Source of the DNA: an uncultured Candidatus Saccharibacteria bacterium
GTDB lineage: Bacteria > Patescibacteriota > Minisyncoccia > Phycocordibacterales > UBA9973
DNA: 64,000 bases
Assembly (NCBI GenBank): GCA_964631935.1
Contig: CAZWAV010000001.1
Span: forward strand, 211,460-275,459
Reading direction: 5' to 3'
Shown piece by piece: positions 10,752-44,600 of the stretch. The translations under genes were made by a program, and so were the position numbers. How positions within the stretch are numbered: position 1 is the stretch's first letter; each line of letters opens with the position of its first letter. The notes under the pieces are model-generated. The model did no database searches. It was not told the DNA's origin and worked only from the letters and a program-made list of their open reading frames with translations.

Positions 10752-10905
10752 AAAAAATTCCTCATAATGAGGAAAGATAGATGACTAGTCTTATCTTTCC
10801 GAATAGTACCTTCGTACTACTTGGTTGGAATTAGCACCTTACATTTGCAGGTTGCTGAACGGATCATTGAGCCAATACTCTACTCGTTCTCTTGATACAA
10901 CTATC
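10752..10905 (-). promoter_or_regulatory. SAM-I (S-box) riboswitch with intrinsic terminator in metK leader
   Basis: Minus-strand RNA reads GUUGUAUCAAGAGA...GGCUCAAUGAUCC...CAGCAACC...GGUGCUAAUUCC...AAAGAUAAG (S-box conserved blocks), followed by UUCCUCAUUAUGAGGAAUUUUUU terminator immediately upstream of metK. Confidence 0.6.
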
Positions 10906-11565: not shown

Positions 11566-11566
11566 G

Positions 11567-12316: not shown

Positions 12317-12318
12317 AG

Positions 12319-28177: not shown

Positions 28178-29590
28178 CTATTCCATGATAAGCATATCTT
28201 CAGCTGTCAGATTTTTTTCTTCCTTACTCAGACTTGGGTTTCTCCTATTTAAAATAAAGATCATGAGAGAAGCTACGAAAATAAGGCAAATAAATCCGAG
28301 CCATGCGAGAGCTGAAGTAGAAATTGAAATGGGAGATCCTTCGGCGCTTGCACCGAGGTCATCTAAATTTATAACAGAAGATTCTGGGGTTGTTGGTTTT
28401 AGATCATTTGTTGGTTCTAAAATATTATTTTCTGCTGGAGTAACATATCTTGTACTTTTCACAGATGATGGGTATATCGCTAACGTTTCTCTTTTAGAAT
28501 TAAACAATGTGACATATTTTAAATCTTCACCACTAAAAATGGTAACTCTTGGAGAAAATTTTATCTTCTTACTTGGTAGCAAAATAGTTCCATCAGGTAT
28601 AGTGAATAGATGGATACCTCCTTGTATTATCCATTTTGATAAATCAATTTCAAGCGGTGACTTATTCTCAATCTCTACAAACGGATCATTCGTATTCCCA
28701 ACAGAGCTTATCGTTACATCCCTAGGTATTACTTTTATTGTAAGGCGATCGGTGGCATCAATATCTTTATTGCCATATACGCGATAATAAGAAAGGGTCA
28801 CTACGTATTCACCTGGGTACATATAAGTATATTGGAATGGATCAGATTCTTGTTGTTCTTTTGTCATACCATCACCAAAATTCCAAACGAACTTCCCCAT
28901 ACGAAGTGGTTCTTTCCCATACCCGGCCGTCGTAGCACTGAAGTCTAAAGGAAGTCCTGCGACAGCAGTATTTTTTGCAACAATATTTGTAATTATTTTG
29001 GGAACTTCTATTTCTTTTTTCTTAACTTTAGGGGGAGCTTGTGTCGTAGTGGTAGATGTATCGTCTCCAGTATCTTCTACTCCAGAACCAGCTTTATTCT
29101 CGGCTCCTGGTGTTGGCTTCGCGCTTTGCCACGAGCTACCAATTTTCTGAAGTGAGTCACCGTTGCCTGCTCCGCCCATACTTGAAGTAAAAGATACTTC
29201 ACTTATTATATTTTGATTTGGATCTTTCAGAGCTATTGTTTCTCCGTCATTATTTAACCCAGTCCAACTACTATCAAATAGTAATCCTCCAAAATCAGGT
29301 TGGTCTGCTCTGAAATTTGTCACATTCTGAGCGATAATTGCATATCCACCGGCGGGTACCTGAGGGGCACCTTGAGGAACTAGGGCATGCTTTGTATTGT
29401 CGGTAAATAAATACCAGGTCGATAAATCTGCTGAATCAGATCCAGTATTTTGAACTTCAACCCATTCCCGATTTGTATCTGTACCATCGAGATCATACAT
29501 GATCTCTGTAATTTCAAAACCCGCTTGAGCTACATGAACCCTGGCCCAGAATATTAATAGAGGAAGAATCCAATATTTTATATTTTTCAT
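28178..29590 (-). CDS. Secreted/surface protein with lamin-tail-like and PKD-like domains, C-terminal TM anchor
   Basis: Signal peptide MKNIKYWILPLLIFWARVHVAQA; EVQNTGSDSADLSTWYL (LTD-like); FVWNFGDGM...YTYMYPGEYVVTLS (PKD-like); hydrophobic C-terminus. Confidence 0.55.
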   Translation of the reverse strand: MKNIKYWILPLLIFWARVHVAQAGFEITEIMYDLDGTDTNREWVEVQNTGSDSADLSTWYLFTDNTKHALVPQGAPQVPAGGYAIIAQNVTNFRADQPDFGGLLFDSSWTGLNNDGETIALKDPNQNIISEVSFTSSMGGAGNGDSLQKIGSSWQSAKPTPGAENKAGSGVEDTGDDTSTTTTQAPPKVKKKEIEVPKIITNIVAKNTAVAGLPLDFSATTAGYGKEPLRMGKFVWNFGDGMTKEQQESDPFQYTYMYPGEYVVTLSYYRVYGNKDIDATDRLTIKVIPRDVTISSVGNTNDPFVEIENKSPLEIDLSKWIIQGGIHLFTIPDGTILLPSKKIKFSPRVTIFSGEDLKYVTLFNSKRETLAIYPSSVKSTRYVTPAENNILEPTNDLKPTTPESSVINLDDLGASAEGSPISISTSALAWLGFICLIFVASLMIFILNRRNPSLSKEEKNLTAEDMLIME

Positions 29591-29600
29591 AGAAATATAA

Positions 29601-31880
29601 TTATTCTAATACTTTGCGGAGCACATCTTCAGGTACTTCTTTTGGTGTTTGTCTCTTTTGCCATGTGTCAGTCTTTGGTACTGATTCTTCTTTTTTTATT
29701 GGATTTGGGGTTGGAGTTGATTGTGGCTGAGCTATAGGCTGTGTATTTTGCTTTACTTCTTCTTTTGGTTTTTCTATAGGTGTAGTCGTGTTGTGTTGTT
29801 CTATGTTTGTCTGTGAAATAAAGATTGTTTGGTTGACCGGTGTAGGATTGGTGCTTTCGATTGGCTTAGCGGGAATAACTGGCACTACTTCTACCCTTGA
29901 TTCTATTTTATCTTCTGCTTTAGGTTTTGGAATTATAGGCGTAGCCGCTTGAGGTGTTGATGTAACTTTTGCTAACAAATCTTTCAAGGATGCTTTCTTT
30001 TCTTCAGAAGCTTCTTTTGTAGGTATTGGTATAGGTACTGTTGCGTTTGGACTACTTTCTGATTTCTTAAGAATTGATAGAGACACAGGAGCAGGTGTAG
30101 GTGCTTTTACTTCAGCAACTTTTATTGGTGTATTATTAGGCTTTTTATTTTCTGCATCTATTTTCTCAAGCAACCCTCGCAGGAGTGGCGAAGGGCCAGA
30201 ATGCTTTTTCTCTGGTGGTTTGTAGGGAGTCCTATTATTATTTGTATTAATATTTGGATTTTGTGGTCTTGGTATATTTGTATTATTAAAATTTCTTTGT
30301 GGAGGTCTTGTGTCTACGGGCTTTGGGCCAGATGCCTGGCTGACATATTCAATACCCAAAGCAGCGAGTGGCGCAGTAGAAACTCTTTCGTCTTGGCGAG
30401 CTGATCTTGATGCAACGAAACCACTCTGAGGTTTTAATTCCCCACTCTTTATCTTGAACATACAGTCCTTACAATAAACTGGTCTACCCTCTTTTGGCTC
30501 GAAAGGTACCATGGTAACCTTGCCACAATTTGAACATTCAGCCTTGTACTTTGCTTCACCTTCGCCAACCTGAAGCATTCCACTCCATTTTGATATTTCT
30601 GCTTCGACTTCTTCACGGGGACGAGCGTATAAACTACGAGAAAGTTCTATGATTCTCTCCTTTACGCCTGCGGTCGGATCAATCTTCATAGGCGGTAGTG
30701 TGCTTGCTGAGAATGGACGGCTTGTTACTCCATCTATCATAAGCTTGAGATATACATGATAGTTTGGTAAATTCACCAAATCTTGAGCAGTGAATTCTGG
30801 TTCAAATTCTTTCTCCATAAAATCTGCATCATCAGCTCCTACGCGGAATATTATCATCGTACCGACGTTACCGAAAACCGCATCACGTACAGCTGTACCA
30901 TTTTCATTGGAAAGCTGGGCAGTATATTGGTGGGCAATTATTAGATTGAGACGGTATTTACGCGCCTCGGAAAGAATGTTTGCAAATGAATCAGTAGCAA
31001 AGTTTTGGAATTCGTCTACGTACAGATAGAAATCTTTACGTTCATCTTCAGGTATACGCACACGCTCCATGGCCGCAAGCTGGATCTTGGTAATGATCAT
31101 ACCTCCAAGTAATGCTGAGTTATCTTCACCAACGCGACCCTTCGAAACGTTCACGAGGAAAATTTTCCCTTCGTTCATTATCTTAAATATATCGATTGTA
31201 GATTTCGATTGGCCGACGACGTTACGGATAATAGAAGTAGAGAGGAATTGACCGACTTTGTTTTGAATCGGAGCGATAGCTTCATTTCGGAATTGTTCAC
31301 GCCATTGTTCATATTCGTGGACCCAGAATGCTTTGACTACTGGATCTTTCAAATTGCTAATTATCATCTGACGATAGTCTTTATCAACAAGAAGACGAGG
31401 AATACCTAGAAGTGTGGTACCCGGAGTATCGAGTAGCGCAAGAATAGCATTATTGAGAATATATTCCATACGAGAACTCCAAGCATTTGCCCAGATCTTG
31501 GTAAATATTCCCATGAGGCCAGATGCCACCAAGTGCTTGTACTTAGGATCATCAAGAGCTATGACATTGAAGCCGACATTGAAATCAATATCAGCTGGAT
31601 TGAAGTAAATGACATCTTTAGCTCGATGGTCTGGAATGAGATGAAGGATTTCTTCGACGAGCTCGCCGTGCGGATCAACCACACAGACACCTTCGCCATT
31701 ATTTATATTTTGAACAATAAGATTAGATAGGAGGACAGATTTACCAGTACCTGATTTACCAAGCACGTACATATGCTGGCGTCTATCCTTACGCTTTATG
31801 CCGAAAATAGTATTCGTACTGCGAAAGTTAGTCCTGCCAAAGTAGGTTATATCTCGGTTGTGTGGAATTTCGTTGTCCAT
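29601..31880 (-). CDS. VirD4/TraG-like (T4SS coupling-protein-type) P-loop ATPase, soluble, with C-terminal zinc ribbon and long P/T/N-rich tail
   Basis: GKSGTGKS Walker A, VVDPHGE, DEFQNFAT, LIIAHQ; CSNCGK...CKDC zinc ribbon; ~290-aa low-complexity tail. Confidence 0.65.
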   Translation of the reverse strand: MDNEIPHNRDITYFGRTNFRSTNTIFGIKRKDRRQHMYVLGKSGTGKSVLLSNLIVQNINNGEGVCVVDPHGELVEEILHLIPDHRAKDVIYFNPADIDFNVGFNVIALDDPKYKHLVASGLMGIFTKIWANAWSSRMEYILNNAILALLDTPGTTLLGIPRLLVDKDYRQMIISNLKDPVVKAFWVHEYEQWREQFRNEAIAPIQNKVGQFLSTSIIRNVVGQSKSTIDIFKIMNEGKIFLVNVSKGRVGEDNSALLGGMIITKIQLAAMERVRIPEDERKDFYLYVDEFQNFATDSFANILSEARKYRLNLIIAHQYTAQLSNENGTAVRDAVFGNVGTMIIFRVGADDADFMEKEFEPEFTAQDLVNLPNYHVYLKLMIDGVTSRPFSASTLPPMKIDPTAGVKERIIELSRSLYARPREEVEAEISKWSGMLQVGEGEAKYKAECSNCGKVTMVPFEPKEGRPVYCKDCMFKIKSGELKPQSGFVASRSARQDERVSTAPLAALGIEYVSQASGPKPVDTRPPQRNFNNTNIPRPQNPNINTNNNRTPYKPPEKKHSGPSPLLRGLLEKIDAENKKPNNTPIKVAEVKAPTPAPVSLSILKKSESSPNATVPIPIPTKEASEEKKASLKDLLAKVTSTPQAATPIIPKPKAEDKIESRVEVVPVIPAKPIESTNPTPVNQTIFISQTNIEQHNTTTPIEKPKEEVKQNTQPIAQPQSTPTPNPIKKEESVPKTDTWQKRQTPKEVPEDVLRKVLE

Positions 31881-31930: not shown

Positions 31931-32515
31931 CTATTTTGTATGTACTCCGTGAGTCATCCGATATTCCATGATCTGACTAAAGATAACCCCGAAGAAACAG
32001 ATGGCAATATACCCAAGCATAGCTTGCTGGTAAGATATTGGAATACTTTTTAGCATGCCCAATACGAAAGATATAAGCCAGGAAATTAAAGATACAGCCC
32101 CCATCGCAAAAGATATTTTTCTAAATTTAACATACTTATGGTGAACATTATTATCTGTAAAATCTATTTTCTTTAATGCTGGATGTATAAACCGCCAAAA
32201 GGCATAGCCATTCAATATTATAATACCTACAATAGAAATCTTGACTAGAAATTTAGTTGAACTTGCATACTTTATAGGATTTGATAGAAATAATCCGAGA
32301 CCACTAAGAGATATGAATAGCAGACTTGCCCATACAATAACAGAAAGAACTTTTAGTGTTTTGCTTTCTATTGCATTGATTTTTTTATTCTTTAGATAAA
32401 CATTAAATAATATATCTGATATAAGAGCCGCACCCATACCAAATATAACAGCTAAGACATGAATAATAAGGGATATAATTTTATATTCGCCAAAAAAAGC
32501 TATTGTATCTTCCAT
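31931..32515 (-). CDS. Polytopic membrane protein, hypothetical
   Basis: 194 aa, ~5 hydrophobic helices. Confidence 0.55.
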   Translation of the reverse strand: MEDTIAFFGEYKIISLIIHVLAVIFGMGAALISDILFNVYLKNKKINAIESKTLKVLSVIVWASLLFISLSGLGLFLSNPIKYASSTKFLVKISIVGIIILNGYAFWRFIHPALKKIDFTDNNVHHKYVKFRKISFAMGAVSLISWLISFVLGMLKSIPISYQQAMLGYIAICFFGVIFSQIMEYRMTHGVHTK

Positions 32516-32550: not shown

Positions 32551-34305
32551 TTAAAATACTTCTTTTTTATAACAATCTTCGCAGTAAATATTATCTATAC
32601 CACTATCATACGCGGTTTCAAACACATTAGGGCATCTGGTATTTCCATGAGATGAATGTTCTTCAATATTCTCATATTTAGCATTAACAGAATGTGTTCC
32701 GTTGCATAAACATTGCGACTTTTGCAATCGTGGAGGAACCATGAATTTCTGACGTCTAGCAAATCTACAATCAAAGCAATGGCGTGGAAGTGGCAGATTT
32801 GAATTTTTTAAGAATTGGAATTCATCAAAAATAATACGGTATGCTTTTTTGCAATTCAAACATTCGATAAACTCTTTAGTTATATCAGAACTTGTATCAT
32901 TTATAAATTCCGGTAAATCAAGAGAAGAAATAGTAGTCTCGTATAATCGCTTATTTTGCTCTCGCCATATAAAACCTTCATTTTCTACCTCTTCTTTATT
33001 AGAAGGAAATTGATCATTAAGCAGCGTCTCATTGTATGCGAACGGAGACATCTCTACCGGGAAAAATTCTCCATATTTATATATATTACCTCTTTTGTCT
33101 ACATATGGTACATCATTCATTTGCTGTTTAATTTTAGAAACAAGATTAATATATTCTTCTTTTGAATACTGTATATTAAAAATACAATACTGCTTATCCT
33201 TCATACCAACACAACCAAAACAATTTCTTGAACGCCTCATGTTTATACAATACTCGAGATCCTGACATGCAGGCCAACACTCAAAACAAAATTTAATATT
33301 ATCTGCATACTCACCCACAATCATGCATTCATATATCTGAGAAGCACTAACTCCCCAACATGTATAATCATAAGAATTGCTCGCTCCGCCAAAAGGAAGG
33401 TCTTGGACATATTTTAGATTCTCCCCCTTTTTAACGATATAACTATATTTGACATTTTTACTATCTTTTATGTCTTCTCCTAGGACATCATAATTACGGA
33501 ATCCTAGCATATATTTAATGGGAAATTTTTTCCAAAATTCCTCTGCTTGTTTTCTTGCATTAGAAAATCCTTCCCATGTATCAAGCTTCATTGATTTTAT
33601 CTTTTCTAGGTATTCTTCTTTTGAATATTCTTCGTTAAAAATTTTGTATGTTGAATTCCTAAGATTGACGCAACCAAAGCAATTTGTACACCCCACACAA
33701 TTCTTTGAAAACCATACATCAACACAATTTTCAGACATAATAGAACCAACTGTGTGGTAGCTTTTATCCACTCTTACAGAGTCATAACAAAATTCAGAAT
33801 CATAACAACTCGTAGTATCAAAGCATGTCTTTAAATTACTTGCATTGCAACAATATGCAGAATCTTCTAGAAATGTTGCATTGAAACATAGATATGTATT
33901 TTTCATATCATCACACATGTTGGAGTAGTCAGAATTTACACAGCGTTGCATTGATTTTGCTGGATATGGTATAGAGTGAAATAGATCATTAAATTGATTA
34001 AAAAAAGGAACAGAAAAATTGTATTCTCTGCCATATAAAAGAGAATCCCAATTATCACTTTCCCAATATGAATGTTCATATAATGGAAGGTTTACTTGTG
34101 GTGGAATTCCAGTAAATATCTCTTTATTAGTTACGGCATCTACTCCTCGGAACAAGTGTCGCACATTACGCCAGATTGCTCTTCTTTTATATCTACAGTC
34201 GGGACAAAATGTCGGGGCAGGGACTTTCATTTTTTCATAGAACGAAAAATCATCTGGTTCAATATTGAAATTATTCTTACAGTTTTGGCAGGTTCGAGTT
34301 TCCAT
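32551..34305 (-). CDS. Cys-rich protein, paralog A (zinc-ribbon termini + internal CxxCxxCxxC repeats), unknown family
   Basis: 584 aa; N-terminus TCQNCKNNFNIEPDDFSFYEKMKVPAPTFCPDCR; internal CVGCTNCFGCVNL...IFNEEYSKEEY and CFGCVGMKDKQYCIFNIQYSKEEY repeats; C-terminal CLNCKK...CFDCRF, CEDCY. Confidence 0.6.
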   Translation of the reverse strand: METRTCQNCKNNFNIEPDDFSFYEKMKVPAPTFCPDCRYKRRAIWRNVRHLFRGVDAVTNKEIFTGIPPQVNLPLYEHSYWESDNWDSLLYGREYNFSVPFFNQFNDLFHSIPYPAKSMQRCVNSDYSNMCDDMKNTYLCFNATFLEDSAYCCNASNLKTCFDTTSCYDSEFCYDSVRVDKSYHTVGSIMSENCVDVWFSKNCVGCTNCFGCVNLRNSTYKIFNEEYSKEEYLEKIKSMKLDTWEGFSNARKQAEEFWKKFPIKYMLGFRNYDVLGEDIKDSKNVKYSYIVKKGENLKYVQDLPFGGASNSYDYTCWGVSASQIYECMIVGEYADNIKFCFECWPACQDLEYCINMRRSRNCFGCVGMKDKQYCIFNIQYSKEEYINLVSKIKQQMNDVPYVDKRGNIYKYGEFFPVEMSPFAYNETLLNDQFPSNKEEVENEGFIWREQNKRLYETTISSLDLPEFINDTSSDITKEFIECLNCKKAYRIIFDEFQFLKNSNLPLPRHCFDCRFARRQKFMVPPRLQKSQCLCNGTHSVNAKYENIEEHSSHGNTRCPNVFETAYDSGIDNIYCEDCYKKEVF

Positions 34306-34306
34306 A

Positions 34307-36007
34307 TTAGTTTACTTCTTGCTGATAGCAAGTCTCACAGTACACAATGTCAGGCTGGGTTGATTCATAGCTTGTCTCAAATTCATTTGTACAACCAGAA
34401 TTCATACACGAACGGTGATATAGTTTAGGTTTGTTTATAAACTGGTAGCGATCTAAAAATCTACAATTATGGCATTTGTGGGGCAAAGGTATGCCTATAC
34501 GTTTATAGAATTGTAATTCAATAGGGACTATTCTATATGCACGCTTACAACTCTCGCAAGCAATAACTTCTTTAGTAATATCGTCTGGCACATCGTTAAT
34601 TAAATCAGGTAAATCTACTCCTTTCATCGTTGTTTGAAATTCGCGTGCATTTGGTTCACACCATAGAAATCCTTTTTCTTTTGCTTGCTCAGAATTTAAT
34701 GGCACATAATCTTGGGCCAAGCTTTCGTTATACGCAAGTGGCGAAAATTCAGATGGAAAAAATTCTCCGTATTTATATTCCCTACCCAATGAATCAAAAT
34801 ATGGCATCTCATTCATATGTTCTATAATTTTATCCCGTAACTGGAAATATTCTTCTTTTGTATATTGTTTATTGAAGATACAATATTGTTTCTTTTTAAG
34901 ACTTACACAACCAAAACAATTTGATGACCCTACGCAGTAACTACAGTATTCAAGGTCACGCGATTCTGCCCAGCAATTAAAACAATATTTAAGGTTATAG
35001 GAGCCTTCACCACAAGTTACGCATTCATATGCATTTTCGACTCCCATAAAAAGCTGATTACAGTCGTATGAATTAGCTGCTTTGAGAACGCTGATCTGGC
35101 AATATCGTAAATTTTCTCCTTCTTGTATCGAAACAGAATCTAAGACATTTTTGGAATCACTTATTCGCTCTCCAGTACAGTTTAGGTTTCTTATGCCATG
35201 ATAATACTTTACTGGGAATTTTTGCCAAAATTCTAAGACTGCAGGCCATAATTCCTTAATTGATTCATATGATCCAAGATTTAATTCAGAGATTCTTTTA
35301 TCGTATTCTTCTTTTGATAATGGCTCATTAAAAAAATAATTGGACTTACCCTTTAAATTGACGCACCCGAAACAATCTGTACAACCACGAAGACCTTTTG
35401 AGAACGAGACATCTACACAACTCTCGCAGTCTAGAGAATAAAATGTTCTGTAGCTTTTATAAACCATTACATCCTCATAGCACAGCTCGTCATCTATTAC
35501 TTCATGAGAGTCAAATGAATCCTTCATATTTGTGGCTTTGACTAAATATGCAGAGTTTTCAACAAAGTCTGAATCAAAACATAAGTATGCATTACGTAGT
35601 CTTCCTGCCTCATTGCAATAATCTGAATTAATCATGAATCCTGCGGATGATTTTGCGGGTAGAGGAGTCAAAGACAACAAATCATAGAATTGTTTAAAGA
35701 ATGGTTTAGAGAAATCATACTCTACTCCGTAAGAAAGAGGATTCCATTCATCTCCATGCCAGTAACTATTTTCATAGGTATGTAAATTTGCCTCGGCAGG
35801 AAAACCCGAAAAGGAATCTTGCCCTGTATGAGCGTCTTTCCTACGAAATAGATTACGTTCATTTCTAAATGATAGGCGGCGAACCATCCTACAATCCGGG
35901 CACCATGTCGGAGGTGGTACTTTCATCTTCTCATAGAATGAAAAATCATCTGGTTCGATGGTAAAATTATTTTTGCAATTCTGGCAGGTTCTATTTTCCG
36001 GATTCAT
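34307..36007 (-). CDS. Cys-rich protein, paralog B (tandem duplicate of 32551..34305)
   Basis: 566 aa; N-terminus TCQNCKNNFTIEPDDFSFYEKMKVPPPTWCPDCR nearly identical to paralog A; same internal and C-terminal Cys patterns; 1-nt gap to paralog A. Confidence 0.6.
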   Translation of the reverse strand: MNPENRTCQNCKNNFTIEPDDFSFYEKMKVPPPTWCPDCRMVRRLSFRNERNLFRRKDAHTGQDSFSGFPAEANLHTYENSYWHGDEWNPLSYGVEYDFSKPFFKQFYDLLSLTPLPAKSSAGFMINSDYCNEAGRLRNAYLCFDSDFVENSAYLVKATNMKDSFDSHEVIDDELCYEDVMVYKSYRTFYSLDCESCVDVSFSKGLRGCTDCFGCVNLKGKSNYFFNEPLSKEEYDKRISELNLGSYESIKELWPAVLEFWQKFPVKYYHGIRNLNCTGERISDSKNVLDSVSIQEGENLRYCQISVLKAANSYDCNQLFMGVENAYECVTCGEGSYNLKYCFNCWAESRDLEYCSYCVGSSNCFGCVSLKKKQYCIFNKQYTKEEYFQLRDKIIEHMNEMPYFDSLGREYKYGEFFPSEFSPLAYNESLAQDYVPLNSEQAKEKGFLWCEPNAREFQTTMKGVDLPDLINDVPDDITKEVIACESCKRAYRIVPIELQFYKRIGIPLPHKCHNCRFLDRYQFINKPKLYHRSCMNSGCTNEFETSYESTQPDIVYCETCYQQEVN

Positions 36008-36446
36008 TTGTTTTATTTAAAATTGAAGAGTGTAAAGTATCCCCTTTGTATGGCTTACCATATACAATCTCTATTTCAGGCAAAATACCATTCTCCATAG
36101 CTTCATTTATATTATCAAAAAGTGAGTCCTGGTCATATCCAAGATAAATAATGTTTGGTTTTATTTCTTTTACTATATTATATTTCCCCTCTTCTAGGTC
36201 ACCTAAGAATACAGAATCTATCTCTGGTATTTCTAACAGTGCTTTAATGCGATCAGCTTCATTGTTAATAGGAGGTTTTCTTTTTAAGGTATTTACTACA
36301 CTGTCTCTAGCGACTACCGCCACTAGTCTTTCCCCTTTTTCTTTTGCATCATGTATAAAAGCACGGTGTCCATCATGGATACCATCAAATACTCCAAAAA
36401 TTAAAACAGTTTGAGGATTCATTAGTGTATTTCTTTCATCATCCAC
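35991..36446 (-). CDS. Cytidylyltransferase-like nucleotidyltransferase (HxGH family)
   Basis: VLIFGVFDGIHDGHRAFI (GxFDxxHxGH), 151 aa, single-domain size. Confidence 0.7.
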   Translation of the reverse strand: MDDERNTLMNPQTVLIFGVFDGIHDGHRAFIHDAKEKGERLVAVVARDSVVNTLKRKPPINNEADRIKALLEIPEIDSVFLGDLEEGKYNIVKEIKPNIIYLGYDQDSLFDNINEAMENGILPEIEIVYGKPYKGDTLHSSILNKTNESGK

Positions 36447-36727
36447 TCTTTATAGGGATGGTTAATCCGGCGAACATCTACACCAGCAATCAATGGAATA
36501 CTGTATGTATGATTCTCGTTAATAATATTCGTTACGCTATCAAGCTTGGCCTCAAATGTTGTGATCAGAAGCATTGCTTGAGACACACACTGAAGACCTC
36601 CCTCCCAATTATAGCAAGATTTAATCGGCCAGAAATCCACACAGGCACCAATCTTTTGACCTATAATTATTGAACCTAGTTTCTCTGCTTCCTCCATGCT
36701 TTCACATGTCGTATATATAAACACCAT
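36422..36727 (-). CDS. cutA: Divalent-cation tolerance protein CutA
   Basis: 101 aa; VFIYTTCESMEEAEKLGSIIIGQKIGACVDFWPIKSCYNWEGG pattern typical of CutA1. Confidence 0.7.
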   Translation of the reverse strand: MVFIYTTCESMEEAEKLGSIIIGQKIGACVDFWPIKSCYNWEGGLQCVSQAMLLITTFEAKLDSVTNIINENHTYSIPLIAGVDVRRINHPYKEWMMKEIH

Positions 36728-36793: not shown

Positions 36794-38272
36794 TTATATC
36801 AAGGGCTCGCTTGCTTTCTCTTCTACTGCTGGTTTAGCACCCTGATCACCATATGCTGAGTTCTTGCCTCCTGTAATTGCGGCCTTTTCTTGGGCCGAAC
36901 GGATGATAGTAGACTCTTCTTCTGCAATTAGTCTCTGGGCATCGCCTGCAGGTATGGCATATTGCCTGCGAGAAGCCTCAATGATGCGCTCTCGGTATGA
37001 AGGATGGGTCGCAGGAAGAACACGCAGAGTCTCTGCTGAGAATGGATCATAGCTTTCTCCATCTATTGTCATCTTTATATAAAATTCTCCGACTCCTAGA
37101 TTGATCATATCTTTCACATCAAAGATTGGAGCAAATTCTGGCTTGAGCTTTGTCGCATCATCACCTCCAACACGGAATGAGATGATAGAACCGACGTTAC
37201 CAAGCACTGCCTGCTGAACCTTTGGTAGAAGCTGGCCGATATATTGGTGAGCCACAGTAAGATTGAGTCCATACTTGCGAGCTTCAGAAAGAATGTTCTC
37301 AAATGTATCTGTAACTATATTTTGGAACTCGTCTACATATAAATAAAAGTCGTGACGATCTTTGGGATCAAGCTTGGCACGAGCCATACCTGCTTGTTTA
37401 ATCTTTGTTAGGAACATCGCACCAAAGAAAGATGAATTCTCTTCCCCTATTTTTCCTTTAGAGAGATTAATGAGAAGTATCTTCTGATCGTTCATTATCT
37501 TTTCGATATCAATCTTGTTTTCTTTCTGTCCGAAAATATTACGGAGCATTGGGTCAGACAAAAATTGTCCGAGTTTATTTACGAGTGGGATGATAGCATC
37601 CGTATCGAACTTCTCAGACCAATCAGCGAATTCTATTGCCCAGAATCTTTTAACCATGTCATCTTCAATATACTCGACAACCTTCTGACGGTAATTACGA
37701 TCAGTGAGCATAGAGATCATACCGCGCATAGTTGCATGAGGATAATCAAGAAGAGCAAGTGTTGTAAAACGAAAGACGTGCTCAAGACGTGGAGTCCAGT
37801 TCGCACCGAACTGCTTACGAAGAACCTCAATGAGACCTTGAGTCAACTGGTGCTTAAAAGTTGGATCAACGTTCGCGAGAGGATTGAATGATGATGGGAA
37901 ATCTATATCCCCGGGGTCAATGACACAAACATCATTAATACGATTCTCTGGAATGAAATTTAAAATATCTTCAATAAACTCTCCGTGTGGATCGATAATA
38001 CAAACACCACAACCATAAGCTATGTCTTGGCGAACCATAAGCTCTTGGAGCTTGGATTTACCGACACCAGACTTCCCTATAATATATAAATGTCTTCGGC
38101 GATCTATACGCTTTATACCGAAAACGAACTTCTTTTCTTCAAGAGAAGCTACGTAGTTTGTCCGGCCAATAAAAGAAACCTCACTCGGATCAGCTTGACC
38201 AAGAGTCGGTAAATCAGGAGGCGGAGGAGCATATTTTATTATTTGAATCTTGTTCGGTTTATCGAGCGCCAT
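36794..38272 (-). CDS. VirD4/TraG-like P-loop ATPase, paralog of 29601..31880 (no zinc-ribbon tail)
   Basis: GKSGVGKS, IIDPHGE, DEFQNIVT, LTVAHQ; 492 aa; same architecture as the other copy through the ATPase core. Confidence 0.65.
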   Translation of the reverse strand: MALDKPNKIQIIKYAPPPPDLPTLGQADPSEVSFIGRTNYVASLEEKKFVFGIKRIDRRRHLYIIGKSGVGKSKLQELMVRQDIAYGCGVCIIDPHGEFIEDILNFIPENRINDVCVIDPGDIDFPSSFNPLANVDPTFKHQLTQGLIEVLRKQFGANWTPRLEHVFRFTTLALLDYPHATMRGMISMLTDRNYRQKVVEYIEDDMVKRFWAIEFADWSEKFDTDAIIPLVNKLGQFLSDPMLRNIFGQKENKIDIEKIMNDQKILLINLSKGKIGEENSSFFGAMFLTKIKQAGMARAKLDPKDRHDFYLYVDEFQNIVTDTFENILSEARKYGLNLTVAHQYIGQLLPKVQQAVLGNVGSIISFRVGGDDATKLKPEFAPIFDVKDMINLGVGEFYIKMTIDGESYDPFSAETLRVLPATHPSYRERIIEASRRQYAIPAGDAQRLIAEEESTIIRSAQEKAAITGGKNSAYGDQGAKPAVEEKASEPLI

Positions 38273-38754: not shown

Positions 38755-40077
38755 ATGTCAATAAAAGCAATAATATGTAGTATAATAGACCCACATATGA
38801 GCGAAGATAAAAAATCTCTACTTACTGATAGTAGTGACTATATAAAAAAACTCGGCCCCGGACTAATCACCGGTGCTGCTGATGACGATCCTTCTGGTAT
38901 CGCCACTTATTCACAGACAGGTGCCCAATACGGCACAAGCTTGCTGTGGCTTGCCGCATGGACATTCCCTCTTATGGCTATGATTCAAGAGATGTGTGCG
39001 CGTATAGCACTCGTAACTGGTCAAGGATTAGCCGCAAACATAAAGCATACTTACTCAAAAAAAGTACTTTATGTATGTACATTTTTACTCTTTATAGCTA
39101 ACACCCTAAACATAGGCGCGGATTTAGGCGCTATGGCAAAAGCCGTCCAACTCATAAGTCCTAAAATTTCATTTGTGTTCTTGGTTATATTTATCGGAAT
39201 AGTCGGACTTCTATTACAAGTATTTATCCCTTATAAAAAATATGCGAAATATTTGAAGTGGCTAGTCATAGCATTGTTCGCATATATAGCCACTGGCCTT
39301 ATTATTCATATGGATTGGTCTACTCTTCTCCGGGATGGAATAATTCCGCATATAACATTTTCTAAGACTCAAATATTGCTCATAACAGGAATACTGGGAA
39401 CTACAATATCCCCTTATCTATTCTTCTGGCAAACATCACAAGAAGTCGAAGAGCAAATAGCTGAAGGAAAAGTAACAGTGAAATCACGCCAAGGTACAAA
39501 TGATCGAGAAATAAAAAAGATGCGCATCGATGTATGGACTGGGATGTTCCTTTCAAATTTAGTCATGTTCTTTATTATCGCTGTATGCGCTAACACACTA
39601 TTTGTCCACGGAATTACAAATATAAGCACAGCTAGTGACGCGGCTATGGCCCTAAAACCTTTAGCGGGGCCTTGGGCTACTGTTCTATTTGCTATGGGCA
39701 TCCTAGGCACTGGTATGCTAGCTATACCGATACTCGCAGGATCGACTTCATATGCCATATCAGAGAGCTTTGGATGGAAGGAGGGTCTATACAGGAAGCT
39801 AAACGAGGCTCGGGCATTCTACGGAGTTATAATCGTATCTATAATAATAGGCATATTTATAAACTTTATTGGCATAGACCCAATAAAGGCACTCATCTAC
39901 TCTGCAATTGGAAATGGTATCATTGCACCTATTGTACTCGTATTCATAGTCCACATTAGTGGAAATAAACAAATCATGGGGCGATACAAGAACTCTCGTC
40001 TTGGAAATGTTGTAGGTTGGATAGTCACTATCCTTATGGGGATTACAGCTTTAGCTGCTATATATTCCTTATTATAA
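38755..40077 (+). CDS. mntH: NRAMP-family divalent metal (Mn2+/Fe2+) transporter
   Basis: GPGLITGAADDDPSGIATYSQTGAQYG...; 11-12 TM; 440 aa. Confidence 0.85.
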   Translation: MSIKAIICSIIDPHMSEDKKSLLTDSSDYIKKLGPGLITGAADDDPSGIATYSQTGAQYGTSLLWLAAWTFPLMAMIQEMCARIALVTGQGLAANIKHTYSKKVLYVCTFLLFIANTLNIGADLGAMAKAVQLISPKISFVFLVIFIGIVGLLLQVFIPYKKYAKYLKWLVIALFAYIATGLIIHMDWSTLLRDGIIPHITFSKTQILLITGILGTTISPYLFFWQTSQEVEEQIAEGKVTVKSRQGTNDREIKKMRIDVWTGMFLSNLVMFFIIAVCANTLFVHGITNISTASDAAMALKPLAGPWATVLFAMGILGTGMLAIPILAGSTSYAISESFGWKEGLYRKLNEARAFYGVIIVSIIIGIFINFIGIDPIKALIYSAIGNGIIAPIVLVFIVHISGNKQIMGRYKNSRLGNVVGWIVTILMGITALAAIYSLL

Positions 40078-41602: not shown

Positions 41603-44600
41603 TTATTTCTTTTTTGGAGCTTCAGGATTAGTCTCTATAGGGACCAATTTAGGAATTGGCAACTTAAGATCTGGACACATGATATTGTTCACTTCAGTTT
41701 GAGTAGTGAGATAGAATATTCCAGTAGGCCCTTTAAATCCCCAAGGATTTAAGACATTACTTGATTGTCTTGATTGGAATTTCTTCACTGCTTTCTCTGT
41801 GCTATTGCCATAGTTTCCATCTTCTTTAAGTCCTGCTTTCATGTAGTCATTCAAGAACTTCTGAAGCTTCTTTACTGCTTCTGTGTCGTTCTTATAGCCT
41901 TTTCGTAGGAACTTATCTATGTAGATTCCGCAGGCAGTAGATGCACCGAGAACCTGACCTTGTGGAGCTATTTTACCGCCTCCTCCACCACCATTATTAT
42001 TATCTGTAATAGTTGGTCCTCCGCCACCTCCTGAATTATTTTCGTCTGTATCATTAGGATCATAAGCTCCACCAAATGTACCCCCTGCATGACAGCCTGG
42101 ATCATTTGAGTCTATAAGTTGATCTGTATCATTATCTAGCCCGTCTGAACATACAGCAGAACTATTTGACTCATCATCATCGAGAGCATTATATGATTCT
42201 GGGTTATTTACATTACCATCACTGTGACAGCCTGGGTCTGCTTGGTCAATAAGGCCATCTTCATCATTACTAATACCATCTGAACACTGAGGACTATTAT
42301 CAACTACTGGAACATATGTATTTGTAACAGTACATGTAGCTGAACCACCTGCAGGAACATTTAAGTCAGTACAAGTTGAGTATTCAGTTGTATAATTAGC
42401 GTAAGAATTTTCAACAACAGTGTGGTTGCCAGCAGTTACAGTAATATGATTCTCCCCGTCAGATTCGAAAGCAACAGCATCTGCACCGTCAACCTTGAAG
42501 CTAAATGTTGAAGGATTTACATCACTATTTAATAATACTTTCTTTACAATAAGAGTGCCTGTTGTTGGATCAACTGGGGGGCAGTCGTTGCTTGTAACAT
42601 GAAGTTTGTAGAGCAAACCAGCTGGATTACTATCAAACGTAGACTCGGCAACTGGCATGTTTGTGACACTAAATGAAAGTGAGTTTGAACCAGCATTTAG
42701 GAATGAGAGTGGATTGTAAGAATGCACAGTATTGTAATTGAACTCTGTAGGGTCTGAGAAGACACTTGAGCCTGCATTAATACTGACATCGTAGCCATTA
42801 TCTGCCGCTACATCGAGCGTCGCAGATGTAGGTGTACCTAATATGTTAAATGTTTTAGTAAATGTTTTTGTCTGTGAAGTAGTTGTATCGAATCCTTCTA
42901 TCACTGACCAGATCCAAGTAGCACCTGGAATGTTTGCAGTCCAACCTGGGTTTATAGAAGCGACAGGAGTAGCATTTACACCATCAACCATATCTTCTGC
43001 GTTACTAAATACATCTAATTCATGGTCTCCACATTGAGGGACATCATTTGGTACACATTGACCATCATTATTTAAATGCATTCCTTCTGGAACTGTAGCT
43101 TGATTCCCTTCAATATTTGGACACATATCAACTGGGGCCTGAGTCTTTAAAGCATTCCAAGCTACGCAGTAGTAATGAGCTCCTGGGACGATCTTTGCTG
43201 TATCTTCATCAGCACCTATACCTTCGTAGTTATCATAGTTATAGATATCGCTTGAACAGTATATCTCAGCAGTAACATTATTTACATTACCAGGGAAATC
43301 TTGAGCTGTGAAAGGAATGTATCCATCCTTTAGAACTTCAGCAAGATGAACTTCGGTAACTCCAGTGATTGGAATATTCATAGTTGTAGTTCCATCTTCA
43401 CCTGTTGATTGATCAAATTTTGTGTATCCAGATGCAAGACCGACAAGAGTGTCAGCTGGCGCTCCAGTGTCTTGATTTCCATATTGGAAATCCCATCCAC
43501 TTTGTAAGTGACAAGTTGGGTGCTGTGCTAGCCAATCAGTTGCAGTAGAAGAATTTATTTCAAATGGTGCACCATTCTCTCCTGTACCCCAGTTTGGAAG
43601 ACTAGTCTCACTATCACAAACTATTTTTGTAGCGGTAACAGTTATAGTAGTAGGAGTCTCTACAACAGGTACATTAAATCCTACGCAATGATAAGTGTGA
43701 TTTACTTGCACAGGATCTATCCAATCATAGTTATCATAATTTAATACATCAGTATTACAGTAAAATTCAGCAGAATTTTTTGAAGCAGTGTCATTTAGAT
43801 TTGTCGTTGCACCAGAGAATGGAACATAGCCAGGCTTCATTTGTTCACGAACCCAAATTTTGTGTCCACTAGGAACTGAAACTGTGGATGTAAATGGTGT
43901 CCATGTACCACCAGCAGCACCTAAGTTATTCCCAGGGTTTGCTGTTGCTTCTGGTGCCCATTCAAAATTCCAAGGCTCTGTGTGGCATGTTGGGTGATTT
44001 GCTATGAAAGTACTTGCTGTTGTAGAAGTTATATCTGCACCTCCTATACCCCAGTTTGGAAGTAGGTCTTCCGTTGGGCAAACTATCTTTGTAGCAGATA
44101 TTGTAGCAGTAGGAGCTGGAGCATGGTTTTCGCACCATTCACTGCCATCATTACTTGGCTTGCCATCTTGTTTAAGTGGTCCAGCGTAACTAAAATCGCC
44201 ATGACCTAGGTGTGTCTGTAGAGAGCTTGAGTCTATTTGGATTGCACTCCAAGGGTGATTTTGAGAGCCAGTTTGGTGACAAATATTCACTTTATTTTGG
44301 TTATTATCTTCATCGTCATCATCGTCGTTATGGGAATTTGTAGCAACCCAAGTAAAAGTGTCATCAGCGCTATCAAAACCAGTGCCTGAAATACTACCAT
44401 TGCCGGCCCTTGTACCAGTAAGGTCAAAAGTATACCCAGCCCCTGTGCCAGTATATAAACCATGTAGTGTTACTGTAGTACCTGAAATAGTACCTGTAAG
44501 ATTCCATGTGGCTGTAGGATCAGATACTGAGTGACCAGTGCCAGAGAGAACACCTGTGCCTAGATTCTCATTTGCAATATTCATCACATGAGGAAAGACT

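What the first reader, a model, noticed from the sequence alone, without database searches (positions are those of the whole stretch)
32551..36007. Tandem paralogous ~570-aa proteins with extreme cysteine content and zinc-ribbon-like termini, unknown family
The two genes are separated by 1 nt. Their N-termini are near-identical (TCQNCKNNF[NT]IEPDDFSFYEKMKVP.PT.CPDCR) and they share C-terminal CxxC...CxxC pairs. Each has more than 40 Cys, including two copies of an internal C-x2-C-x2-C-x2-C...IFN..YSKEEY unit. This does not match ferredoxin, radical-SAM or any classic zinc-finger spacing that I recognise. A tandem duplicate with conserved termini suggests a hetero-oligomeric metal-binding complex.
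Basis: seen in the sequence. Interest (0 to 1): 0.7.

Follow-up and report, generated by a model that had tools for sequence, protein, structure and literature searches.

The report
Zinc-capped cysteine-lined solenoid protein family
Two adjacent genes encode members of a very large, unnamed protein family of ultra-small (CPR/Patescibacteria) bacteria, whose zinc-finger-capped, cysteine-lined beta-solenoid proteins usually lie beside a pair of orphan DNA-pump-like ATPases of unknown role.

Summary
Two co-directional minus-strand genes, A (34307-36007, 566 aa) and B (32551-34305, 584 aa), are 1 nt apart and 50% identical. They are about 6% Cys against a window median of 0.75%, but have 33 and 35 Cys, not more than 40. 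No curated family, solved structure or paper covers them. The family is large: at least 1,900 clusters at 50% identity, mostly Paceibacteria.

Each protein has a basic treble-clef zinc finger at the N-terminus and a finger plus ribbon at the C-terminus. Between them lie two homologous beta-solenoid modules. Only the 12 terminal Cys behave as metal ligands. The roughly 20 solenoid Cys sit on a strict 3-residue lattice and swap individually with Ser, Val or Ile, so they probably line the core.

The family forms same-strand arrays of 1 to at least 7 old paralogs under strong purifying selection (dN/dS 0.04-0.08). These arrays lie beside two conserved soluble VirD4/TraD-like ATPases, T1 and T2. 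The link holds when loci are seeded from either gene, and T1 carries the same zinc ribbon as the family's C-terminus.

Most likely these are zinc-stapled cytoplasmic scaffold or adaptor proteins working with that ATPase pair. "Unknown family" and zinc termini are supported. A cluster-rich hetero-oligomeric complex is not.

The parts
34307..36007 (-). Gene A: 566-aa family member, the upstream paralog ('A-type' ortholog group)
   Evidence: ORF. 33 Cys. Orthologs at 71-89% identity. AF2 pLDDT 77.
32551..34305 (-). Gene B: 584-aa family member, the downstream paralog ('B-type' ortholog group)
   Evidence: ORF. 35 Cys and 50% identity to A. Own orthologs at 64-79% identity. AF2 pLDDT 86.6, pTM 0.87.
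35840..35986 (-). A, N-terminal basic treble-clef zinc finger (aa 8-56; Cys 8/11/36/39) with an Arg-rich tail
   Evidence: Translation checked. zf_Tbcl 21.2 bits against a cut-off of 24. Cys 94-97% conserved. Net charge +4.
35318..35632 (-). A, solenoid module 1 (aa 126-230): about nine 12-residue coils with Cys on a 3-residue lattice, ending in CTDCFGC...FFN
35213..35317 (-). A, helical hairpin after module 1 (aa 231-265, SKEEY...)
   Evidence: Helices 232-241 and 247-261 with pLDDT around 90.
34868..35164 (-). A, solenoid module 2 (aa 282-380), homologous to module 1, ending in NCFGC...CIFN
   Evidence: Internal repeat E 1.3e-10. The equivalent region of B is modelled as regular 12-13-residue coils.
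34568..34867 (-). A, conserved acidic helix plus alpha/beta region (aa 381-480; MPY.D..G..Y.YGEFFP)
   Evidence: High conservation. pLDDT 85-95. Net charge -11. No fold or family match.
34412..34558 (-). A, C-terminal treble-clef finger 1 (aa 484-532; Cys 484/487/512/515), a paralog of the N-terminal finger
   Evidence: E 7e-13 against the N-terminal finger. Cys 487/515 co-vary, phi 0.95. Net charge +8.
34310..34408 (-). A, C-terminal zinc ribbon (aa 534-566; Cys 534/539/557/560), the same domain type as the T1 ATPase finger
   Evidence: Cys 97-99% conserved. A profile of this region finds only T1 fingers among 1,762 non-family ORFs. zf_Tbcl_2 below threshold.
34144..34290 (-). B, N-terminal treble-clef zinc finger (aa 6-54)
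   Evidence: zf_Tbcl 15.2 bits.
33625..33939 (-). B, solenoid module 1 (aa 123-227); 12 of 13 Cys share one phase of 3; contains the only full C-x2-C-x2-C-x2-C string
33172..33468 (-). B, solenoid module 2 (aa 280-378)
32554..32862 (-). B, C-terminal finger 1 (aa 482-530) plus zinc ribbon (aa 532-584, with an 18-aa insert relative to A)
36794..38272 (-). T2: soluble 492-aa VirD4/TraD-like P-loop ATPase, upstream in the same gene string
   Evidence: Pfam DUF87, T4SS-DNA_transf, TrwB_AAD_bind and TraG-D_C. Sub-threshold TraD, VirD4 and CedD matches. No TM segment. 66-94% conserved across loci.
29601..31880 (-). T1: soluble 759-aa VirD4/TraD-like ATPase, 46% identical to T2, with a CxxC-x17-CxxC finger (nt 30453-30551) and a Pro/Lys/Thr-rich tail of about 270 aa
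   Evidence: (TIGR04272 56 bits against a cut-off of 36). No TM segment.
36422..36727 (-). CutA1-like small protein, a recurrent neighbour of T2 and the family
   Evidence: Pfam CutA1 E 2e-23. Present in 18/80 family-seeded loci and many T2-seeded loci.
35991..36446 (-). Small cytidylyl/adenylyl-transferase-like gene whose end overlaps the start of A by 17 nt
   Evidence: Pfam CTP_transf_like E 6e-14. NCBIfam cyt_tran_rel. Overlap.
31931..32515 (-). 194-aa multi-pass membrane protein of no known family, between B and T1
   Evidence: About 5 hydrophobic segments. No family hit. Found in 10 related loci only.

Best explanation
A and B are two old paralogs of a very large, undescribed Patescibacteria protein family.

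Architecture. Each is a cytoplasmic protein of about 570 aa. It has a basic treble-clef zinc finger at the N-terminus and a second copy of that finger plus a CxxC-x17-CxxC-type zinc ribbon at the C-terminus. Between them are two homologous flat beta-solenoid modules with coils of about 12 residues, each closed by an NCFGC...IFN..SKEEY cap and a helix. In A and B, three Zn(Cys)4 sites staple the termini. About 40% of relatives have a fourth site. The other roughly 20 cysteines are not discrete ligands. They occupy every third, inward-facing position of the solenoid and serve mainly as small core-lining residues.

Function. The family works together with a conserved pair of soluble VirD4/TraD-like hexameric-translocase-type ATPases, T1 and T2, beside or between which its gene arrays lie. 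The most likely role is as scaffold or adaptor (client) proteins. The basic fingers at both ends would dock onto the ATPase, or onto the nucleic-acid or protein substrate it handles. The rigid acidic solenoid would act as spacer and recognition surface. Different paralogs would provide different specificities.

Shown: architecture, family size, conservation pattern, purifying selection, gene linkage, shared ribbon domain.
Inferred: zinc occupancy, physical interaction with T1/T2, adaptor role.
For: Architecture:
- Internal repeats.
- 12 terminal Cys are 86-99% conserved. The optional fourth site is all-or-none (phi 1.00), and Cys 487/515 are lost together (phi 0.95).
- Solenoid Cys are 30-97% conserved, replaced by Ser, Val, Ile, Leu, Thr or Ala, with weak co-occurrence (phi <= 0.43).
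- 95% of Cys spacings in module 1 are divisible by 3, against 33% expected. The 12-residue register is clear.
- AF2 gives pLDDT 77 for A and 86.6 for B.
- There is no TM segment or signal peptide.
- The fingers are basic (+4, +8) and the rest is acidic.
- zf_Tbcl and zf_Tbcl_2 match 9 and 4 of 35 relatives.
- Proteins carrying the CxxC-x17-CxxC domain bind Zn by ICP-MS (PMC12704099).

Linkage to T1/T2:
- T is present in 44/80 family-seeded species loci and in 26/40 of those >= 15 kb. It is present in 28/48 loci whose seed is <= 61% identical to A. It lies <= 200 nt from a family gene in 20/44.
- Reciprocally, 55/80 T2-seeded metagenome loci carry the family, and 32/39 of those >= 12 kb. Layouts are '1 F F F 2' or '2 CutA Y F.. 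1'.
- The link also holds in a 53% GC lineage (L169).
- All these genes are co-directional, with short gaps in the window.
- A profile of the family's C-terminal ribbon hits 41 of 1,762 non-family ORFs; all 40 listed are the T1 finger.
- A stand-alone copy of the C-terminal fingers sits directly upstream of T in L169.

Constraint: dN/dS is 0.04-0.08 for both ortholog groups.

Literature: Patescibacteria carry about 2 VirD4-like genes per genome. Almost none are near virB4, and their role is unknown (PMC12102498).
Against: - No experiment or interaction prediction links the family physically to T1/T2. The case rests on gene neighbourhood, and many loci are related by descent.
- About a third of the long family-seeded loci show no T within 7 kb. 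Single-copy members in other lineages sit in unrelated housekeeping contexts.
- The best-conserved solenoid Cys (209/212/215, 367, 376; 82-97%) could still form a real metal site, which co-variation cannot test.
- Parts of the solenoid are modelled with pLDDT of only 50-65, and model coordinates could not be inspected.
- T1/T2 fall far below the NCBIfam cut-offs for TraD and VirD4 and have no PDB sequence relative. Their own activity is therefore inferred.
Confidence: 0.45

Rival explanations
1. Metal-filled solenoid. The inward-facing Cys lattice binds a column of soft metal ions or Fe-S clusters inside the helix. The family would then be a metal store, buffer, chaperone or redox wire, functionally tied to the neighbouring metal-ion genes rather than to the ATPases. 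This is.
For: - 6% Cys. One complete four-Cys coil (positions 206/209/212/215; 71-94% Cys) is conserved in about half the family.
- The C-x2-C-x2-C string matches the first three ligands of a ferredoxin motif.
- Metal-ion genes recur beside family members in separate lineages: CutA in 18/80 loci including divergent ones, Nramp in the window, VIT1 in L171, and two CNNM/CorC genes in L174.
Against: - Most lattice Cys are individually exchangeable with Ser, Val, Ile, Leu, Thr or Ala. Their number per module ranges from 3 to 21.
- They show no all-or-none co-variation, unlike the true zinc sites in the same alignment.
- There are no Fer4 or radical-SAM matches at E <= 1.
- Many invariant aromatic and polar non-Cys residues and a fixed 570-aa architecture argue for a more specific role than storage.
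- The metal-gene neighbours are heterogeneous and could be chance.
Confidence: 0.15
2. Exported effectors or surface proteins. T1/T2 act as coupling proteins that hand the solenoid proteins to a secretion route. Outside the cell the Cys lattice forms disulfides, as in beetle antifreeze proteins. The paralog arrays would give host-interaction diversity.
For: - Arrays of paralogs lie next to coupling-protein-like ATPases.
- Beta-solenoids are typical of secreted adhesins and antifreeze proteins.
- The 12-residue coil with small or Cys residues every third position resembles TmAFP (PMC8038014).
- The Patescibacteria T4SS is thought to serve functions other than conjugation (PMC12102498).
Against: - There is no signal peptide, and T1/T2 have no TM segment.
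- No membrane channel gene is consistently adjacent.
- In Patescibacteria generally, only 148 of 5,713 VirD4-like genes are near virB4.
- Zn(Cys)4 fingers at both ends suit a reducing cytoplasm.
- The i/i+6 spacing expected for TmAFP-type disulfides is the least enriched multiple of 3, and no pairwise Cys co-variation is seen.
- Orthologs are under strong purifying selection (dN/dS 0.04-0.08), unlike typical diversifying effectors.
Confidence: 0.1
3. RNA- or ribosome-associated factor, independent of the ATPases. The basic fingers bind rRNA or tRNA, and the family acts in translation or RNA modification.
For: - The treble-clef fingers are basic with Arg-rich tails.
- A 52% GC lineage with flagellar-ATPase and pyruvate-oxidoreductase (POR) genes on the contig, so probably outside Patescibacteria, has a GNAT-family fusion. 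It starts at the stop of the Der GTPase gene, downstream of IscS, MnmA, MiaB and RNase III (L165).
- Another member lies next to YchF GTPase, with TrmD and a Rim-type GNAT nearby (L168).
Against: - This rests on only two such contexts. Other single-copy contexts are unrelated.
- The zinc ligands are partly lost in the GNAT fusion.
- It explains neither the arrays of up to at least 7 paralogs nor the two-way linkage with T1/T2.
Confidence: 0.1
4. Obligate A/B hetero-oligomer. The tandem pair encodes two subunits of one fixed complex.
For: - The 1-nt spacing suggests translational coupling.
- Both paralog types are conserved and co-occur in several genomes (L033 and L063; L018+L058; L017+L061).
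Against: - Copy number per locus varies from 1 to at least 7.
- There are 47 paralog clusters at 50% identity with variable order.
- A- and B-type genes are often on different contigs, and their order is reversed in L033.
Confidence: 0.1

Closest known systems
Treble-clef zinc fingers zf_Tbcl (PF13451) and zf_Tbcl_2 (PF23477; NCBIfam TIGR04272 'CxxC-x17-CxxC')
   Same: - Both have paired CxxC motifs 17-24 residues apart and the F.I...D..FY.K...P.P..CP.CR core.
- 9 and 4 of 35 relatives match the two models (best E 2.4e-6 and 3e-5).
- The family's last ribbon specifically recognises the TIGR04272 finger of T1.
- Small proteins with that domain bind zinc (PMC12704099).
   Different: - The fingers cover only about a quarter of the protein.
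- A and B themselves score below the gathering cut-offs.
- The first Cys pair of the last ribbon is C-x4-C, not CxxC.
- These Pfam domains have no known function, so they explain little.
Tenebrio molitor antifreeze protein (TmAFP, PDB 1EZG): 12-residue TCTxSxNCxxAx right-handed beta-helix
   Same: - Coils are 12 residues long with a small or Cys residue at every third, inward-facing position (PMC8038014).
- There is no classical hydrophobic core.
   Different: - TmAFP is a secreted 8-12 kDa protein with a signal peptide and intra-coil i/i+6 disulfides, which are not favoured here.
- It has a TxT ice-binding face.
- This is convergence, not homology.
Flat two-sheet beta-solenoids: curli CsgA (8c50) and the ryegrass ice-binding protein (3ult)
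   Different: Sequence identity is 7-10%. Those proteins are secreted, Cys-free, and have different repeat lengths. The resemblance is at fold-class level only.
Type IV coupling proteins (VirD4/TraD/TrwB) with their substrates and adaptors
   Same: T1/T2 carry the TrwB_AAD_bind, T4SS-DNA_transf and TraG-D_C signatures. They are encoded next to a variable set of client-like genes.
   Different: - T1/T2 lack the N-terminal membrane anchor.
- No VirB4, relaxase or other T4SS family was found among the 29 window ORFs scanned against Pfam.
- They score far below the family cut-offs.
- The solenoid proteins have no recognised secretion signal.
LIM domain (two consecutive zinc fingers)
   Same: The C-terminal eight-Cys unit gives weak LIM-like matches: 19.8-20.5 bits, and CRP proteins at E 0.025.
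   Different: The score is below the 22.9-bit cut-off. The spacing and ligand set differ. LIM is a eukaryotic protein-interaction module.

Membership tests
zf_Tbcl (PF13451) | Two CxxC pairs about 24 residues apart flanking an F.I...D..FY core | tested here: met
   A: C8-x2-C11-x24-C36-x2-C39 and C484-x2-C487-x24-C512-x2-C515. B has the equivalent.
zf_Tbcl (PF13451) | Pfam HMM score at or above the gathering cut-off (24 bits) | tested here: inconclusive
   Full-length A scores 14.8 bits and B 15.2 bits. The isolated N-terminal finger of A scores 21.2 bits. 9 of 35 relatives match at E <= 0.01, best 2.4e-6. P0119 carries a precomputed PF13451 hit.
zf_Tbcl_2 / TIGR04272 CxxC-x17-CxxC | HMM score at or above cut-off (27 bits) | tested here: not met
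   The C-terminal ribbon of A scores 12.0 bits and the family consensus 15.6 bits. However, 4 of 35 relatives match at 3e-5. A profile of this ribbon hits 41 of 1,762 non-family ORFs; all 40 listed are T1 TIGR04272 fingers.
zf_Tbcl_2 / TIGR04272 CxxC-x17-CxxC | Zinc bound by the four Cys | not testable with these tools
   Indirect evidence only: all-or-none Cys conservation, and zinc binding shown for M. mazei proteins of this domain type (PMC12704099).
Ferredoxin-type 4Fe-4S domain | CxxCxxCxxxCP motif and a Fer4-family HMM match | tested here: not met
   No Fer4 model matches at E <= 1. The strings are CxxCxxC(xxC) with no xxxCP. These Cys are replaced by Ser, Leu or Val in relatives.
Radical SAM | CxxxCxxC motif and a Radical_SAM HMM match | tested here: not met
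   No Radical_SAM hit at E <= 1, and no Cys pair at i/i+4 followed by i+7 in the positions listed.
TmAFP-type 12-residue beta-helix | 12-residue coil with small or Cys residues every third position | tested here: met
   Register. Spacing enrichment of 2.6-4.0x at 3, 6, 9 and 12, with 95% of spacings divisible by 3.
TmAFP-type 12-residue beta-helix | Secretion signal and intra-coil i/i+6 disulfide pairs | tested here: not met
Hexapeptide (LbH) and pentapeptide repeat proteins | Hexapep or Pentapeptide HMM match | tested here: not met
Trm112 / YbaR (the name JGI gives gene A) | Trm112p HMM match at or above cut-off (22 bits) over the domain | tested here: not met
   14.4 bits over 19 residues (475-493). 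The JGI name is listed.
Metallothionein-like metal store | Small protein with a very high Cys fraction and few aromatics | tested here: not met
   566-584 aa, 6% Cys, with many invariant Trp, Tyr and Phe.
Substrate or adaptor of a type IV coupling protein | Encoded next to a T4CP-like ATPase | tested here: met
   (both directions).
Substrate or adaptor of a type IV coupling protein | The T4CP is membrane-anchored and linked to a VirB4 channel | tested here: not met
   T1/T2 have no TM segment. No VirB4-like family appears among the 29 window ORFs scanned against Pfam. In Patescibacteria generally, 148 of 5,713 T4CP genes are near virB4.
Substrate or adaptor of a type IV coupling protein | Physical recognition or translocation by the ATPase | not testable with these tools
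   Needs pull-downs, multimer prediction with interface scores, or secretion assays.
Known anti-phage defence systems | PADLOC model match | tested here: not met
   Only KwaB at E 0.017, 12 bits.

The most novel reading that the evidence does not exclude
The inward-facing, period-3 cysteine lattice holds a stack of metal ions or iron-sulfur clusters along the axis of the beta-solenoid. This would be a protein-sheathed metal column not seen in any solved structure. The expanded family would then be the main metal-handling or redox device of these minimal bacteria, which would explain the recurrent CutA, Nramp, VIT1 and CorC neighbours.
Probability: 0.1. Interest if true: 0.85.

Novelty: new variant of a known kind. 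Interest (0 to 1): 0.6.

Why it matters
Patescibacteria have genomes of about 1 Mb or less, yet some devote more than 12 kb to arrays of this one unnamed family, and every paralog is under strong purifying selection. That marks it as important to their biology.

A 2025 survey found about two VirD4-like 'coupling protein' genes per Patescibacteria genome. Almost none were near a type IV secretion system, and the authors left their role open (PMC12102498). The two-way gene linkage and the shared zinc ribbon found here name a concrete candidate partner family for those orphan ATPases, which makes that question testable.

Structurally, a cytoplasmic beta-solenoid with a strict every-third-residue cysteine lattice, capped at both ends by zinc fingers, has no described counterpart. 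The family also deserves its own domain models. About three quarters of each protein is covered by no Pfam or NCBIfam model.

Tried and rejected
Family and structure databases:
- Pfam, NCBIfam, PHROGs and PADLOC scans of A and B gave nothing at threshold. The PHROG hit phrog_15341 (E 8e-4, unknown function) and KwaB (E 0.017) were judged uninformative.
- PDB sequence searches with A alone and with the family profile gave only chance-level Mdm4, MAT1 and LIM/CRP matches.
- Foldseek against the PDB gave nothing at E <= 0.001.
- The AlphaFold-database library was not available.
- The T2 profile against PDB sequences gave no hit.

Literature: searches for the family, the Pfam accessions, DUF87 in Patescibacteria, and cysteine-rich Patescibacteria proteins found nothing on it.

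Neighbourhood checks:
- Genes interspersed inside the arrays were clustered to look for a hidden conserved partner. They are heterogeneous: membrane proteins, an aminopeptidase-like protein, a hydrolase, toxin-antitoxin modules, an RsmE-like protein. None is consistent.
- The promoter and terminator scan of 27-39 kb gave no more sites than shuffled sequence. It only weakly suggests one transcription unit from about 38300 to 27300.

Rejected readings:
- Ferredoxin or radical SAM (motifs and models absent).
- Metallothionein (size and composition).
- A disulfide-bonded antifreeze-like protein (no signal peptide, no i/i+6 pairing).
- Rapidly diversifying antigen or effector (dN/dS 0.04-0.08).
- Trm112/YbaR, as named by JGI (19-residue sub-threshold match).

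Model coordinates are not exposed, so Cys-Cys distances could not be measured.

Full report

Largely yes. Two minus-strand ORFs sit exactly where stated: A at 34307-36007 (566 aa) and B at 32551-34305 (584 aa). A's TAA stop, one base and then B's ATG give the 1-nt spacer. A and B are 50% identical over their whole length, with near-identical N-termini and matching C-terminal CxxC pairs.

Cysteine makes up 5.8% and 6.0% of the two proteins. The median for 53 window ORFs is 0.75%, and the next highest is 3.96%. The count of 'more than 40 Cys' is wrong: A has 33 and B has 35. The full C-x2-C-x2-C-x2-C string occurs only once, in B module 1.

**2. Anatomy**

Self-comparison shows two internal duplications:
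- The N-terminal finger (A aa 8-56) is homologous to a C-terminal finger (aa 484-532), with E 7e-13 in A and 3.5e-11 in B.
- A middle module (about aa 126-245) is homologous to a second one (about aa 282-400), with E 1.3e-10 and 1.4e-12. Each ends in NCFGC...(I/F)FN...SKEEY followed by a helix.
- A last ribbon (Cys 534/539/557/560) closes the protein.

The fingers are basic (+4 and +8 in A), and everything else is acidic. A has a net charge of -20. Neither protein has a hydrophobic segment, so there is no signal peptide or membrane anchor.

**3. Which cysteines are ligands?**

I aligned 315 full-length relatives.

The 12 terminal Cys are 86-99% conserved. About 40% of relatives carry a fourth site (positions 58/61/79/82) that A and B lack. 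Cys at 61, 79 and 82 are present or absent strictly together (phi 1.00). Cys 487 and 515 are lost together (phi 0.95). That is how true Cys4 sites behave.

The solenoid Cys behave differently:
- They are 30-97% conserved.
- They are replaced one at a time by Ser, Val, Ile, Leu, Thr or Ala.
- Their number ranges from 3 to 21 per module.
- They show only weak co-occurrence (phi <= 0.43), with no preferred partner.

They do sit on a strict lattice. In module 1, 95% of all Cys-Cys spacings up to 24 are divisible by 3, against 33% expected by chance. In module 2 the figure is 62%. Laid out in rows of 12, module 1 shows a clean 12-residue register.

I read these Cys as small inward-facing core residues, not discrete ligands or disulfide partners. 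One caveat remains. The best-conserved positions (209/212/215, 367, 376; 82-97%) vary too little for this test.

**4. Fold**

AF2 of A with 35 sequences gave pLDDT 77. AF2 of B with 124 sequences gave pLDDT 86.6 and pTM 0.87. Both show regular short-strand coils with a 12-13 residue period in the Cys-rich modules. Some stretches stay at pLDDT 50-65.

- phage phi29 gp12, UspA1 heads and LbH enzymes

All are at 5-10% identity. Foldseek against the PDB finds nothing significant. So the fold class is known, but there is no detectable homolog.

**5. Family**

There are no threshold hits in Pfam, NCBIfam, PHROGs or PADLOC, no PDB sequence relative, and no paper.

The terminal fingers relate to the treble-clef models. 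zf_Tbcl matches 9 of 35 relatives (best E 2.4e-6), and zf_Tbcl_2 matches 4 of 35. A and B themselves fall below the cut-offs. JGI's name 'YbaR (Trm112 family)' rests on a 19-residue sub-threshold match.

The family is large:
- 6,922 and 7,976 clusters at 90% identity with E <= 1e-3, among the 8,000 candidates scored in each search.
- 4,521 clusters at 50% identity with E <= 1e-3, and 1,932 with E <= 1e-30. Nearly all are 545-600 aa and match end to end.

Named sources include Nomurabacteria, Paceibacterota, Jorgensen-, Lipton-, Harrison-, Staskawicz- and Sungbacteria. Many automated MAG records are instead titled 'uncultured Candidatus Saccharibacteria'.

A and B each head their own ortholog group, at 71-89% and 64-79% identity. 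dN/dS is 0.04-0.08 with saturated dS. Paralogs within a locus are only 28-60% identical, median 39%. These are therefore old, individually constrained paralogs, not fast-evolving copies.

**6. Context**

In the window the minus strand reads as follows, with gaps of 66, overlap, overlap, 1, 35, 50 and 10 nt:

T2 ATPase - CutA - small nucleotidyltransferase (overlaps A by 17 nt) - A - B - membrane protein - T1 ATPase - LTD/PKD protein

T1 and T2 are 46% identical, soluble VirD4/TraD-like P-loop ATPases. T1 adds a CxxC-x17-CxxC finger (TIGR04272, 56 bits) and a long Pro/Lys/Thr-rich tail.

Across 80 species-representative loci seeded on the family:
- The genes form same-strand arrays of 1 to at least 7 copies.
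- A T gene lies within 7 kb in 44/80 loci, and in 26/40 of loci >= 15 kb.
- It is present in 28/48 loci whose seed is <= 61% identical to A.
- It lies <= 200 nt from a family gene in 20/44.

Taking about 2 VirD4-like genes per genome (PMC12102498) and a genome size of about 0.8 Mb (my own assumption), chance would give about 4%.

The reverse test used 80 metagenome loci seeded on T2. It found the family in 55/80, and in 32/39 loci >= 12 kb. Layouts were '1 F F F 2' or '2 CutA Y F.. 1 L'.

The link recurs in a 53% GC lineage, L169. There a T with an N-terminal DUF8128 extension sits among five paralogs, with a stand-alone copy of the C-terminal fingers just upstream of it.

A profile built only from the family's last ribbon hits 41 of 1,762 non-family ORFs, and all 40 listed hits are the T1 finger. 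The family and T1 therefore share a domain.

CutA is a second recurrent neighbour (18/80 loci), but it tracks T2 as much as it tracks the family. Genes interspersed inside the arrays are heterogeneous.

**7. Mechanism**

Shown:
- a cytoplasmic protein with finger-capped double solenoid architecture
- three all-or-none Cys4 sites
- a Cys-lined core
- strong constraint on each paralog
- two-way gene linkage and a shared ribbon with a conserved ATPase pair

Inferred:
- The sites hold zinc. Small proteins with the related CxxC-x17-CxxC domain bind Zn by ICP-MS (PMC12704099).
- The basic fingers dock onto T1/T2 or onto the nucleic-acid or protein substrate those translocase-type ATPases handle.
- The rigid acidic solenoid acts as spacer and specificity surface.
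- Different paralogs provide different specificities.

I put about 0.45 on this overall. Broken down: roughly 0.8 on the structural description, 0.6 on a functional link to T1/T2, and 0.3 on 'adaptor or client' specifically.

**8. Rivals**

- **Metal or Fe-S bound inside the solenoid (0.15).** Favoured by one largely conserved four-Cys coil and by metal-ion genes beside members in separate lineages: CutA, Nramp, VIT1 and CorC. Weakened by the substitution and co-variation data.
- **Exported, disulfide-bonded effectors handed over by T1/T2 (0.10).** Weakened by the absence of a signal peptide, of any membrane anchor on T, and of a channel gene. Also by the lack of an i/i+6 preference and by the low dN/dS.
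- **An RNA or ribosome factor (0.10).** Suggested by a GNAT fusion coupled to Der among tRNA-modification genes (L165) and by a YchF neighbour (L168). This is only two contexts, and it does not explain the arrays.
- **An obligate A/B hetero-oligomer (0.10).** The 1-nt spacing fits. Copy number, gene order and the location of the two types all vary.

**9. Comparison and novelty**

The parts are known kinds: treble-clef fingers and a beta-solenoid. The nearest analogue of the coil is the 12-residue TCTxSxNCxxAx helix of beetle antifreeze protein (PMC8038014). That protein is small, secreted and disulfide-bonded, and it is not homologous.

The undescribed features are:
- the combination of parts
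- the period-3 cysteine lattice in a cytoplasmic protein
- the scale of the family
- its pairing with the orphan VirD4-like ATPases, whose role a 2025 survey left open (PMC12102498)

I rate it a new variant of known kinds, with interest 0.6.

**10. Limits**

- Everything functional rests on gene neighbourhood, and many loci are related by descent.
- The AlphaFold-database fold library was unavailable.

Noticed in passing
window 29601-31880 (-) and 36794-38272 (-): Two paralogous (46% identical) soluble VirD4/TraD-like ATPases flank the pair. Each is 66-95% conserved across distant Paceibacteria. T1 carries a CxxC-x17-CxxC finger and a Pro/Lys/Thr-rich tail of about 270 aa. They match the 'orphan T4CP' genes noted in PMC12102498.
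   Followed up: yes
window 8175-8300 (+): LOOT RNA (Rfam RF03000, 90 bits against a gathering score of 46). It lies in the gap after a D5_N/DUF5906 primase-helicase (5954-7576, -) and a large serine recombinase (3329-4978, -). This is probably an integrated mobile element.
   Followed up: partly
window 10788-10901 (-): SAM riboswitch (RF00162, 53 bits) directly upstream of a short (311 aa) S-adenosylmethionine synthetase gene at 9808-10743 (-).
   Followed up: partly
window 11065-19779 (-): Likely defence cluster. It comprises a DUF2726 nuclease-like protein and an Eco57I/TaqI_C type IIG methylase (12975-16436). The methylase gene overlaps that of a PLD-nuclease plus SNF2 helicase fusion (16417-19779).
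   Followed up: no
window 25157-26671 (+): An N-terminal HTH_3 (XRE-type) domain fused to an EPSP-synthase/MurA-fold enzyme. This is an unusual fusion, and it also appears in related locus L002.
   Followed up: no
window 41603-44758 (-): 1051-aa protein with acidic double-disulfide repeats (NF033662) and a peptidoglycan-binding domain. It is probably a cell-surface protein.
   Followed up: no
window 28178-29590 (-): A secreted LTD plus PKD domain protein lies immediately downstream of T1. The '1 L' pair is conserved in many loci. From memory, not tested here: lamin-tail domains often accompany extracellular DNA-handling proteins. That could point to a DNA-related role for T1.
   Followed up: partly
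L165 8001-10196: In a 52% GC lineage that is probably not Patescibacteria, a family member is fused to an N-terminal GNAT acetyltransferase and has lost several zinc ligands. Its gene starts at the stop of the Der GTPase gene, downstream of IscS, MnmA, MiaB and RNase III.
   Followed up: partly
L120 9345-9707; L169 6072-6575: Natural mini-versions of the family. One is a 120-aa protein made only of the N- and C-terminal fingers. The other is a stand-alone C-terminal double finger directly upstream of a T ATPase that carries an N-terminal DUF8128 extension.
   Followed up: partly
L169 and L170: Toxin-antitoxin modules (Gp49/HTH, ParE, YafQ) are interspersed between family paralogs in higher-GC lineages.
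   Followed up: no
window 38755-40077 (+); L171 2259-2996; L174 3185-5796: Divalent-metal transport genes lie next to family members in separate lineages: Nramp, VIT1 and two CNNM/CorC genes, besides the recurrent CutA. This could be chance or a metal link.
   Followed up: partly
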